Shown piece after piece: positions 7,360 through 7,709 of a stretch of 8,186 bases of DNA. A program made the position numbers and the translations under genes. Within the stretch, counting starts at the first letter, position 1. Every line of letters begins with the position of its first letter. This DNA comes from a virus (lineage: Monodnaviria; Loebvirae; Hofneiviricota; Faserviricetes; Tubulavirales; Inoviridae), in the IMG/VR virus record IMGVR_UViG_2537561932_000001. The stretch is one strand, 5' to 3'. Below the pieces are notes generated by a model. That model saw only the letters and a program-made list of their open reading frames with translations, searched no databases and was not told the DNA's origin.

Positions 7360-7496
7360 GTTTGCACCGCAATATATTTACCGCATGCGCGCATCATAAT
7401 CACATTTAACACGTGTTGTAAATACGCATGCGCTATGCGGGTGTAAAAAAAATGGAATAATCACCTTCTATTGAAAGGACATAGAGGTAAATTTTG
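7360..7496. promoter_or_regulatory. Divergent control region with palindromic operator candidates
   Basis: Perfect palindromes ATGCGCGCAT (7386..7395) and AACACGTGTT (7408..7417), and CGCATGCG (7425..7432). Candidate plus-strand extended -10 TGGAATAAT (7453..7461) for the regulator gene. RBS GAGG at 7485..7488. Confidence 0.45.
7393..7422 (-). promoter_or_regulatory. Candidate sigma70 promoter for the Rep operon
   Basis: Minus strand: -35 TTTACA (7422..7417), 18-nt spacer, -10 TATGAT (7398..7393). The spacer contains the perfect palindrome AACACGTGTT (7408..7417). Confidence 0.35.
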
Positions 7497-7709
7497 ATGA
7501 AAAAAGAAACAAAGCGCGGAGACACAACCGTAAGGATTAACGAAAACAGAAAACTGGAGCTAAAACGAAGAGTGCTGGAAATCGGTAATAAAACAGGTGA
7601 GCTACTAAAACCATCAGAGATAGTAAACCACTTAATAGACAACTACTTAGATGATGCGGTGAAAGATCTAATAAGCAAAGAAGAACTTAAGAAAAAAAAG
7701 GCAATGTGA
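7497..7709 (+). CDS. Putative ribbon-helix-helix transcriptional regulator (phage repressor candidate), 70 aa
   Basis: Divergent from the Rep operon, as repressors are in other filamentous phages. RBS GAGG 8 nt before ATG 7497 (the track starts at TTG 7494). The pattern TTVRINE, then NRKLELKRRVLEIG, then a GNKTGE turn, then LLKPSEIVNHLIDNYL is compatible with strand-helix-helix. Lysine-rich tail. Confidence 0.5.
   Translation: MKKETKRGDTTVRINENRKLELKRRVLEIGNKTGELLKPSEIVNHLIDNYLDDAVKDLISKEELKKKKAM

What the first reader, a model, noticed from the sequence alone, without database searches (positions are those of the whole stretch)
7360..7709. Divergent regulator with a palindrome-dense operator overlapping the predicted Rep promoter
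A 70-aa protein with a ribbon-helix-helix-like pattern is transcribed away from the Rep operon. The 137-bp region between them holds perfect palindromes ATGCGCGCAT and AACACGTGTT and the near-repeat CGCATGCGC twice. AACACGTGTT lies exactly in the spacer of a plausible minus-strand promoter (TTTACA, 18 nt, TATGAT). This looks like a lysogeny switch that represses phage replication.
Basis: partly seen in the sequence, partly recalled or inferred. Interest (0 to 1): 0.5.

Follow-up and report, generated by a model that had tools for sequence, protein, structure and literature searches.

The report
RstR-like repressor switch, E. coli inovirus
A 70-residue ribbon-helix-helix protein of a filamentous prophage at the E. 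coli dif site is a relative of the cholera-toxin phage repressor RstR and most likely silences the phage replication operon by binding short palindromic boxes that bracket its promoter; this is a known kind of switch in a new host.

Summary
The window is almost one unit of an inovirus prophage integrated at E. coli dif (100% identical to ETEC E24377A). The 70-aa gene (7497-7709, +) diverges from a minus-strand operon (orf65, Rep, ssDNA-binding protein, coat, Zot, secretin). All quoted palindromes and the TTTACA-18-TATGAT promoter are at the stated positions.

The control region aligns without gaps across E. coli, Xenorhabdus, Arsenophonus, Vibrio and Photobacterium elements. The conserved parts are the -35 and -10 hexamers and two CGCATGCG sites bracketing them. 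Family-wide, CATG-centred boxes recur in tandem at 8-bp spacing and change with the beta-strand sequence.

It is the one hypervariable spot among E. coli copies that encode an identical repressor.

Verdict: a new member of the RstR/ig-2 kind of immunity switch, with the interpretation supported. Nothing has been tested experimentally. Interest is moderate.

The parts
7497..7709 (+). Gene for the 70-aa RstR-like ribbon-helix-helix regulator (stop codon included)
7360..7496 (.). 137-bp divergent control region, the counterpart of CTXphi ig-2
   Evidence: It aligns without gaps with the control regions of eight other elements: one further E. coli-type copy and seven from other hosts.
7393..7422 (-). 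Predicted sigma-70 promoter of the orf65-Rep operon: -35 TTTACA (7422..7417), 18-nt spacer, -10 TATGAT (7398..7393)
   Evidence: Consensus scan, 10 of 12 matches. The hexamers and the 18-nt spacing are kept in Vibrio, Xenorhabdus, Arsenophonus, Photobacterium and Salmonella relatives while the spacer sequence diverges. The transcription start is not mapped.
7382..7397 (.). Left operator candidate: tandem 8-bp boxes CGCATGCG (7382-7389) and CGCATCAT (7390-7397).
   Evidence: The columns 'CATGC.c.CAT' are conserved in 9 of 9 aligned elements. The 8-bp CAT-CAT spacing is family-wide.
7425..7440 (.). Right operator candidate: tandem 8-bp boxes CGCATGCG (7425-7432) and CTATGCGG (7433-7440), directly upstream of the -35 hexamer
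   Evidence: 'GTAAAtACgCATgC' is conserved in 9 of 9 elements.
7408..7417 (.). AACACGTGTT: a perfect palindrome in the promoter spacer. It is not conserved and is the hypervariable spot. Its centre lies 16 bp from the centre of the right CGCATGCG box.
   Evidence: The hexamer 7410-7415 reads CACGTG, CACGTA, TGTGTG, TGCGTG or TGCGCG in E. coli copies whose repressor is 100% identical. It reads TGCATG in more distant relatives.
7453..7461 (+). Possible extended -10 element (TGgAATAAT) of the regulator's own promoter. The right operator would then lie over its -35 region. This is inferred, with low confidence.
   Evidence: Read directly from the sequence. Similar TGn-AT-rich elements lie at a similar distance in relatives, for example TGGAATAAT/TGAAATAAT in Salmonella. 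The promoter scan did not report it.
7162..7359 (-). orf65, first gene of the operon under the predicted promoter. Its last four bases overlap the Rep start.
   Evidence: phrog_3104 E 3.5e-25, function unknown.
5966..7162 (-). Replication initiator (RstA-like, Rep_trans)
   Evidence: PF02486 E 1.5e-21. phrog_453 E 3e-109. RefSeq CDS.
7330..7716 (.). Exchangeable immunity cassette: about the first 10 codons of orf65, the control region and the regulator gene
   Evidence: Only this block, with 2 substitutions (7390, 7415), is shared with E. coli inoviruses that carry an unrelated GPA-type Rep (L020, L021).
7795..7818 (+). G+C-rich hairpin followed by a T run, downstream of the regulator gene. 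It is terminator-like and may also belong to the origin region.
   Evidence: Terminator scan. The same hairpin lies downstream of the regulator in Vibrio phage VAI2. Homology between E. coli variants breaks right after it, at 7821.

Best explanation
The 70-aa protein is a ribbon-helix-helix transcriptional repressor of the short RstR class found in CTXphi-like inoviruses.

Inferred mechanism: dimers insert their N-terminal beta-ribbon (residues about 8-15, GDTTVRIN) into the major groove of 8-bp palindromic boxes with consensus CGCATGCG. These boxes occur as tandem pairs at two places. One pair (7382-7397) lies over the -10 hexamer and the start site of the minus-strand promoter. The other (7425-7440) abuts its -35 hexamer. 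The two perfect boxes are 43 bp apart, about four helical turns.

Occupancy of both pairs would exclude RNA polymerase from the one predicted promoter upstream of orf65-Rep. All other phage genes follow on the same strand. The dif-integrated prophage would then stay quiet, and incoming phages carrying the same boxes would be blocked (superinfection immunity).

The right-hand pair probably also overlaps the regulator's own promoter, giving autoregulation of unknown sign. The long, highly conserved second helix (39-69, LIDNYxxDAxKD) may link dimers bound to neighbouring boxes or to the two sites.

The spacer palindrome AACACGTGTT occupies the place of a third CATG-type box in relatives. In E. 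coli copies it is degenerate and variable, so it is at most a weak, tunable site.

Shown here: the sequence features, the homology, the predicted fold and the comparative conservation. Inferred: DNA binding, the identity of the boxes, repression and immunity.
For: Identity and fold:
- phrog_2503 E 1.5e-27.
- 68-70% identity to 'environmental' RstR of CTXphi/pre-CTX and to the RstR-like protein of VAI1/2.
- The best BFVD structural match is CTXphi RstR (E 1e-5, TM 0.80).
- AF2 with a 62-sequence alignment gives pLDDT 89.3, an extended N-terminus and two helices.
- hhalign against CopG aligns strand, helix and helix in register, E 0.011.
- Some family members are tandem two-domain proteins, as expected for a fold that works as a dimer.
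- RstR-calc, reported to repress its own ig-2 promoter (PMC11509585), scores 16.1 bits against the family profile over its full length. None of 5000 shuffles reached that score.

Context:
- The prophage abuts a dif site with one mismatch. It forms arrays of five copies in strain 503025.
- The regulator diverges from a Rep gene in 10 of 10 loci checked. Those Reps belong to three unrelated classes: Rep_trans, G2P/Phage_CRI and GPA. This fits a controller of the promoter rather than a Rep cofactor.

Operator:
- The promoter hexamers, the 18-nt spacing and both flanking boxes align without gaps in nine elements from at least six genera. Salmonella and Citrobacter elements show the same layout.
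- CATG occurs 1.87 times per 100 bp in 30 control regions against 0.36 elsewhere in the same loci.
- CAT-CAT distances peak sharply at 8 bp (30 pairs against 0.9 expected), with echoes at 15-16 and 23-24 bp.
- Box sequence tracks the beta-strand: DT[TS]VR[IV]N goes with GCATGC, DTT[VI]AIN with TACATGTA, and a paralogue with RKAIAITE goes with TGTTAACA.
- Across 12 E. coli copies, all 9 variable positions within 7283-7820 fall in the control region and none in the regulator gene.
Against: - There is no experimental datum for this protein. I found none for its closest allele either (the environmental, probably rstR-4**, type): PMC11509585 tested eight other alleles.
- No Pfam or NCBIfam family matches it, and there is no significant PDB sequence match.
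- The model is a monomer, so the defining intersubunit beta-ribbon is not seen. The single-sequence model made residues 7-33 one helix.
- The promoter is a consensus match only. Two such matches in this 1.1-kb stretch are close to the shuffle expectation of 1.4.
- The box-to-strand correspondence rests on a few clades, so it reflects few independent events.
- No LexA box lies anywhere in the window and no antirepressor gene is evident, so how repression would be lifted is unknown.
Confidence: 0.8

Rival explanations
1. The protein is an accessory DNA-binding factor for rolling-circle replication, in the manner of TraY, TraM or other relaxosome RHH proteins. It would bind near an origin to help Rep, rather than act as a transcriptional repressor.
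Against: The conserved boxes bracket the promoter hexamers, not the downstream hairpin region. The same regulator family, and in L020/L021 the very same cassette, serves three unrelated Rep classes. That is hard to reconcile with a Rep-specific cofactor. The closest named relatives are repressors.
Confidence: 0.07
2. The palindromes are structural elements of the packaged single strand, for example a complementary-strand origin or a packaging signal. Their overlap with a promoter-like sequence would then be incidental.
For: Inovirus intergenic regions carry such hairpins. As single-stranded DNA, the minus strand of 7360-7496 folds somewhat better than shuffles (z = -2.1; 6 of 200 shuffles fold as well), by pairing the two CGCATGCG sites.
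Against: The plus strand shows no signal (z = -0.8). Palindromes of 8-10 bp with no loop cannot make stable hairpins. The family-wide 8-bp tandem phasing, and the change of box sequence together with the protein's beta-strand, point to recognition by a protein. No Rfam family matches.
Confidence: 0.05
3. The protein binds the boxes but mainly activates transcription, of its own gene or of the Rep operon, instead of repressing the Rep promoter.
For: If the regulator's promoter is the TGgAATAAT element, the right-hand boxes lie about 30-40 bp upstream of its likely start. Bound regulators can activate from that position (inference).
Against: The left boxes cover the -10 hexamer and the start site of the Rep promoter, which is a repressing position. 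RstR alleles tested so far repress their cognate ig-2 promoters (PMC11509585). RHH regulators of this size are nearly always repressors (general knowledge).
Confidence: 0.05
4. The palindrome cluster and the promoter match are chance features of a short AT-rich spacer with CG-rich islands. The small ORF would then have no role at this DNA.
For: The promoter scan finds about as many sites as in shuffles. The palindrome excess within this one window has P of only 0.007.
Against: The geometry aligns without gaps across genera. CATG is enriched five-fold over 30 loci. The 8-bp periodicity has a z score of about 30.
Confidence: 0.02

Closest known systems
RstR repressor and the ig-2 operator region of CTXphi/pre-CTXphi, in particular the 'environmental' RstR (ACV95592, strain IB1617; probably allele rstR-4**)
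   Same: The protein is 68% identical over 56 residues. It is a small gene divergent from the Rep gene (rstA) across about 130-137 bp. The control DNA is itself homologous: GCATGCGCGCAT, TGTAAATAC and CGCATGCG lie in the same order and spacing. The prophage sits at dif with no integrase gene seen among the window's ORFs, in tandem arrays. The repressor plus control region is the exchangeable immunity module (PMC11509585 for CTXphi).
   Different: The host is E. coli. The phage encodes its own secretin and has an extra 65-aa gene ahead of Rep. The third box, in the spacer, has lost its CATG core. No LexA box is present and no RS1/rstC antirepressor was seen. The well-studied RstR-ET and RstR-class are 112/111-aa proteins of another sequence type (339 and 336 bp in PMC11509585), and they were not among the tblastn matches to this protein in the phage collection, which holds CTXphi records. 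This particular allele has not been tested in the papers I could read.
RstR-calc of CTXphi-Calcutta (59 aa)
   Same: It is short and also diverges from rstA. It matches the family profile weakly but over its full length (16.1 bits; none of 5000 shuffles as high). It was shown to repress its own ig-2 promoter (PMC11509585).
   Different: The sequence is very divergent. Its control region carries TCTAAGA-type repeats instead of CATG boxes. The homology is below what a database-wide search would accept.
MetJ and its met boxes (E. coli)
   Same: It works alike: an RHH dimer per 8-bp palindromic box, with boxes arrayed head to tail at exactly 8-bp spacing and dimers expected to cooperate (for the 8-bp phasing here; MetJ from general knowledge).
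   Different: There is no sequence relationship and no sign of a corepressor. The MetJ box is AGACGTCT, whereas here it is CGCATGCG.
CopG (RepA) of rolling-circle plasmid pMV158; Arc and Mnt of phage P22
   Same: These are small RHH repressors that shut a promoter controlling a rolling-circle Rep gene (CopG) or phage immunity genes (Arc, Mnt). CopG aligns in register with the family profile.
   Different: CopG is co-transcribed with repB rather than divergent. The similarity is marginal (E 0.011 pairwise). The protein here has a six-residue longer loop and a second helix about twice as long.
Pf4r/Pf5r (repressor C) of Pseudomonas Pf inoviruses
   Same: Same role in the life cycle: a prophage-encoded repressor that confers superinfection immunity. 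Mutations in the repressor or its control region give superinfective phage (PMC8402870, PMC11996451).
   Different: There was no match in the searches run here, so no relationship is shown. Those phages integrate with their own recombinases.

Membership tests
Ribbon-helix-helix (Arc/MetJ/CopG) superfamily | Topology: an N-terminal beta-strand followed by two alpha-helices in about 45-50 residues | tested here: met
Ribbon-helix-helix (Arc/MetJ/CopG) superfamily | Obligate dimer whose two strands pair into the DNA-reading antiparallel ribbon | not testable with these tools
   Only monomer models could be made and both jobs are used. Tandem two-domain relatives are indirect support.
Ribbon-helix-helix (Arc/MetJ/CopG) superfamily | Sequence match to a curated RHH family or to a solved RHH protein | tested here: not met
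   No Pfam or NCBIfam match. PDB profile search: ParG only at E 0.31. Foldseek against the PDB: nothing below E 0.9. hhalign against CopG: E 0.011. The assignment therefore rests on fold, not on sequence.
Ribbon-helix-helix (Arc/MetJ/CopG) superfamily | Operators built from short repeated subsites, one per dimer | tested here: met
   Tandem 8-bp CATG-centred boxes occur across the family's control regions. This is in silico only.
RstR-type immunity repressors of CTXphi-like inoviruses | Homology to a protein called RstR | tested here: met
   68-70% identity to the environmental RstR of CTXphi/pre-CTX and to VAI RstR-like proteins. The best BFVD match is RstR. The match is to the short class only. 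RstR-ET and RstR-class were not among the tblastn matches.
RstR-type immunity repressors of CTXphi-like inoviruses | Gene divergent from the replication initiator across a short control region that holds the Rep promoter | tested here: met
   Window layout. A divergent Rep was found in 10 of 10 relatives.
RstR-type immunity repressors of CTXphi-like inoviruses | Represses the Rep promoter of its own type and gives type-specific immunity | not testable with these tools
   This needs reporter or infection assays. It has been shown for eight other alleles (PMC11509585), but not for this one or for rstR-4**.
RstR-type immunity repressors of CTXphi-like inoviruses | Carried by a prophage integrated at dif without an integrase of its own | tested here: met
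   A dif site with one mismatch overlaps window bases 1-13. hipBA lies on the other side. None of the window's annotated CDSs is named a recombinase, and the eight window ORFs scanned against Pfam gave none. Five tandem copies occur in strain 503025.
PHROG family phrog_2503 | Profile match over the full length | tested here: met
   E 1.5e-27, residues 6-68 against profile positions 2-64 of 65. The family carries no functional label.

The most novel reading that the evidence does not exclude
The spacer box (7408-7417) may be an evolving operator position rather than neutral DNA.

Among E. coli copies that are otherwise identical over 538 bp and encode the same repressor, seven of the nine variable positions fall in 7410-7416. 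The window's perfect palindrome differs from the commonest variant (AATGCGTGTT) by a TG-to-CA change. That change copies one arm onto the other, which is the signature of template-switch 'quasipalindrome correction'.

If so, hairpin-templated mutation would be generating operator variants that retune repression, basal Rep expression or superinfection ability, without any change in the repressor.
Probability: 0.2. Interest if true: 0.55.

Novelty: new member of a known kind. Interest (0 to 1): 0.4.

Why it matters
- It extends the CTXphi immunity logic (RstR, ig-2, dif integration, tandem arrays, exchangeable immunity cassette) to inovirus prophages of enterotoxigenic and other E. coli, and to Salmonella, Citrobacter, Xenorhabdus, Arsenophonus and marine vibrios.
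- It gives the short RstR alleles a fold (ribbon-helix-helix) and a concrete operator model: tandem 8-bp CATG-centred boxes whose flanks change with the beta-strand. No paper in the searched library contains both terms.
- The operator model is directly testable and would explain allele-specific immunity among CTX/pre-CTX phages.
- It also explains how one cassette can control phages with unrelated Rep proteins.
- The practical value is better annotation of 'hypothetical' genes in filamentous prophages, and a handle for inducing or silencing them.

Tried and rejected
- Megablast of the whole window against the phage collection found nothing. Relatives there appear only at protein level.
- Pfam, NCBIfam and a PDB sequence-profile search gave nothing usable for the regulator.
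- The single-sequence AF2 model gave a two-helix hairpin with a helical N-terminus. It was superseded by the alignment-based model.
- Foldseek against the PDB was not significant.
- A LexA box (CTGT-N8-ACAG, one mismatch allowed) is absent from the whole window, so the LexA co-regulation known from my own recollection for CTXphi-ET is not supported here.
- Rfam gave no match.
- Single-strand folding of the control region was not significant on the plus strand and marginal on the minus strand. A structural-DNA reading was therefore set aside.
- I tried to recover rstR-6 from its published primers in IMG/VR and in the phage collection and found nothing. Only a weak look-alike, P0205, is in the family list.
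- The paper that defined rstR-4** (PMC99527) is not held. Equating 'environmental RstR' with rstR-4** therefore remains a guess, based on gene length (PMC12300545, PMC11395875).
- I considered an RHH antitoxin role. I rejected it because the next gene (57-aa membrane ORF, 8012-8185) lies 300 bp away, beyond a terminator-like hairpin.

Full report
**What the window is.** The 8186 bases are 100% identical to a chromosomal segment of enterotoxigenic E. coli E24377A and five other strains. The minus strand carries, in order, a 65-aa ORF, a Rep_trans replication initiator, a small protein of phrog_14411 whose Salmonella counterpart has a weak Putative_G5P match, coat proteins, a pIII-like adsorption protein, a Zot/pI assembly ATPase and a secretin. 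This is a complete inovirus.

A dif site with one mismatch overlaps window bases 1-13, and hipBA lies on the other side. The element is therefore a dif-integrated filamentous prophage. None of the window's annotated CDSs is named a recombinase, and the eight ORFs scanned against Pfam gave none. In strain 503025 it forms an array of five copies with a unit of 8260-8269 bp.

**Checking the observation.**
- The 70-aa ORF runs from ATG 7497 to the stop at 7709, with GAGG nine bases upstream of the ATG.
- The gap to the first minus-strand gene is 7360-7496, 137 bp.
- ATGCGCGCAT is at 7385-7394 and AACACGTGTT at 7408-7417.
- CGCATGCGC occurs twice exactly, at 7382 and 7425.
- The scan reports TTTACA-18 nt-TATGAT on the minus strand at 7422..7393, 10 of 12 matches.

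Two small corrections apply. The neighbouring gene is the 65-aa ORF, whose last four bases overlap the Rep start, not Rep itself. And the repeat is exact, with an 8-bp palindromic core CGCATGCG.

The 137 bp hold 5 of the window's 24 perfect palindromes of 8 bp or more. Dinucleotide shuffles give a mean of 1.17 (P = 0.007), and no other 137-bp stretch of the window is as dense. On its own this is suggestive, not decisive.

**What the protein is.** Pfam, NCBIfam and PDB sequence searches are silent. The protein does belong to phrog_2503 (E 1.5e-27). By tblastn it is 68-70% identical to proteins annotated RstR in CTXphi strain IB1617 ('environmental RstR'), in pre-CTX from strain 17449 and in Vibrio anguillarum phages VAI1/2.

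Profile searches find a compact family: 206 clusters at 50% identity among 1.84 billion representatives. It occurs in Enterobacterales, Vibrionaceae, Shewanella and metagenomic inoviruses.

Foldseek against the PDB is not significant. Against viral models, its best match is CTXphi RstR. hhalign places the strand and both helices in register with CopG at a pairwise E of 0.011.

I accept the RHH call on fold grounds. The dimeric ribbon could not be modelled.

RstR-calc is a 59-aa allele reported to repress its own promoter (PMC11509585). I recovered it from an IMG/VR contig. It matches the family profile over its full length at 16.1 bits, and none of 5000 shuffles reached that. The short RstR alleles thus appear to share this fold. 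The search found no paper containing both 'RstR' and 'ribbon-helix-helix'.

**What the DNA is.** The control regions of relatives are homologous at the DNA level. Nine elements were anchored on GTAAAYAC: two E. coli-type copies, an uncultured phage, Xenorhabdus, Arsenophonus, V. cholerae, V. anguillarum, V. splendidus and Photobacterium. They align without a single gap.

The conserved columns are 'CATGC.c.CAT..TAa' and 'GTAAAtACgCATgC'. These correspond to the left box with the -10 hexamer, and to the -35 hexamer with the right box. The 18-nt spacing is kept while the spacer sequence drifts. Salmonella and Citrobacter elements show the same plan. This is much stronger support for the promoter, and for the two CGCATGCG sites as operators, than the single-window statistics.

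Over 30 control regions, CATG occurs 1.87 times per 100 bp against 0.36 in the rest of the same loci. Distances between CAT triplets peak at exactly 8 bp (30 pairs against about 0.9 expected), with echoes at 15-16 and 23-24 bp. The sites are therefore tandem 8-bp boxes.

In the window the boxes are CGCATGCG|CGCATCAT (7382-7397) and CGCATGCG|CTATGCGG (7425-7440). In pre-CTX the right site reads CACATGCA|CGCATGCG.

**Protein and box change together.** Proteins with the strand DT[TS]VR[IV]N go with [CT]GCATGC[GA] boxes. Those with DTT[VI]AIN go with TACATGTA. The If1-like group (RTTMAI[VT]) goes with TGCATGCA/TGCATGTA. A paralogue found beside the regulator in E. coli E100341 (strand RKAIAITE) sits next to tandem TGTTAACA boxes, again 8 bp apart.

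The nearly invariant threonines would thus read the CATG core, and residue 13 (Arg or Ala) the base outside it. These are few independent events, but they fit direct readout by the ribbon.

**What it controls.** In 10 of 10 relatives examined, the gene upstream and divergent is a replication initiator. It is Rep_trans in some, G2P/Phage_CRI in others and GPA-type in others.

In two E. coli IMG/VR elements (L020, L021), the block 7330-7716 is present with only two substitutions, next to a GPA-type Rep. Everything outside the block is unrelated. The block comprises the first ten codons of orf65, the control region and the regulator gene.

The unit is therefore an exchangeable immunity cassette that works with any Rep. 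That argues for promoter control and against a role as a Rep cofactor.

**The spacer palindrome.** AACACGTGTT is the part of the finding that does not hold up as a conserved operator. I compared twelve E. coli copies whose regulator is 100% identical. Those that share the block 7283-7820 with the window are otherwise identical across its 538 bp, and L020/L021 share only 7330-7716. The only variable positions are 7374, 7390, 7410, 7411, 7412, 7414, 7415, 7416 and 7426. All nine lie in the control region, and seven lie in the spacer heptamer.

The hexamer 7410-7415 reads CACGTG, CACGTA, TGTGTG, TGCGTG or TGCGCG. In more distant relatives it is TGCATG, part of a third CATG box. In E. coli this box has lost its core and varies freely.

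The change from the commonest form AATGCGTGTT to the window's AACACGTGTT is a TG-to-CA dinucleotide swap that makes the two arms perfectly complementary. That is what hairpin-templated 'quasipalindrome correction' produces. Whether the variability reflects selection on repression or a mutational hotspot cannot be decided here.

**Mechanism proposed.** RHH dimers bind the tandem boxes. The left pair covers the -10 hexamer and the expected start, and the right pair abuts the -35 hexamer. The two perfect boxes are 43 bp apart, about four turns, so they lie on one face of the helix. Occupancy excludes RNA polymerase from the promoter that heads all phage genes.

The right pair also lies over the -35 region of a possible extended -10 promoter for the regulator (TGgAATAAT, 7453-7461), allowing autoregulation. 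This last point is inference from sequence only.

No LexA box exists in the window and no antirepressor was seen, so induction is unexplained.

**Rivals.** Four alternatives were weighed: a TraY/TraM-like replication accessory role, a single-strand structural role for the palindromes (fold z -0.8 and -2.1), an activator role, and chance. All fit the comparative data less well.

**Comparison with what is known.** Function, position, integration site, array formation and cassette exchange match CTXphi RstR/ig-2. The protein and even the operator DNA are homologous to the 'environmental' allele. It is therefore a new member of a known kind.

Points that appear not to be in the literature I could search:
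- the RHH fold of the short RstR class;
- the MetJ-like 8-bp box architecture, with box sequence changing alongside the beta-strand;
- the presence of this cassette in 25 of 5426 complete E. coli genomes;
- the hypervariable spacer box.

All functional statements remain predictions until binding and reporter assays are done.

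Noticed in passing
window 1-13; L001 5986-6013: The window starts inside a dif site (AGTGCGCATAATGTATATTATGTTAAAT, one mismatch to E. coli dif). The prophage lies between the ydeQRST fimbrial remnants and a truncated hipA, so it is integrated at dif.
   Followed up: partly
window 12-313 and 322-580: An imperfect tandem duplication of about 300 bp (84-88% identical segments) lies next to the dif junction, upstream of the secretin gene. It may be attachment-site or recombination-site DNA, or the remnant of a second element.
   Followed up: no
L050 (NZ_CP025892.1 1550000-1599999): E. 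coli strain 503025 carries five head-to-tail copies of the prophage (unit 8260-8269 bp), all with an identical control region. Several copies have frameshifted genes. Tandem arrays are what CTXphi needs to produce virions from the chromosome.
   Followed up: partly
window 7795-7818; L003 about 3283-3310: The hairpin ACCCCCGTGTTACAAGACGGGGGT after the regulator gene recurs almost unchanged in Vibrio phage VAI2, and it begins at the end of the pre-CTX locus. Homology between E. coli variants stops right after it (7821). It is missing from the copies with a GPA-type Rep. It may be the Rep_trans origin or nick-site hairpin as well as a terminator.
   Followed up: partly
L005 (phage If1, U02303.1) 707-2674: The 'major intergenic region' of the classical phage If1 holds an unannotated 63/67-aa member of this regulator family (about 46% identical). 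Next to it is an IS200-like TnpA ORF, and the neighbouring 'ORF348' is an IS605 OrfB/TnpB. An insertion sequence thus sits beside the regulator gene in a phage regarded as non-temperate.
   Followed up: partly
L049 (E. coli E100341) 2160-2741: Here a second, divergent family member (strand RKAIAITE) sits beside a GPA-type Rep with tandem TGTTAACA boxes. A 93%-identical copy of the window's regulator follows it, without any CGCATGCG operator. This may be a stowaway immunity gene directed against window-type phages.
   Followed up: no
window 8012-8185: A 57-aa ORF with a hydrophobic core (annotated WP_001409659.1) follows the regulator and the hairpin region. It matches no family. A different small membrane-like ORF holds the same place in the GPA-type relatives.
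   Followed up: no
P0152, P0158, P0171, P0177, P0190 and others: About ten family representatives are 113-149 aa long and match the profile twice. They are tandem duplications of the domain and possibly single-chain dimers.
   Followed up: no
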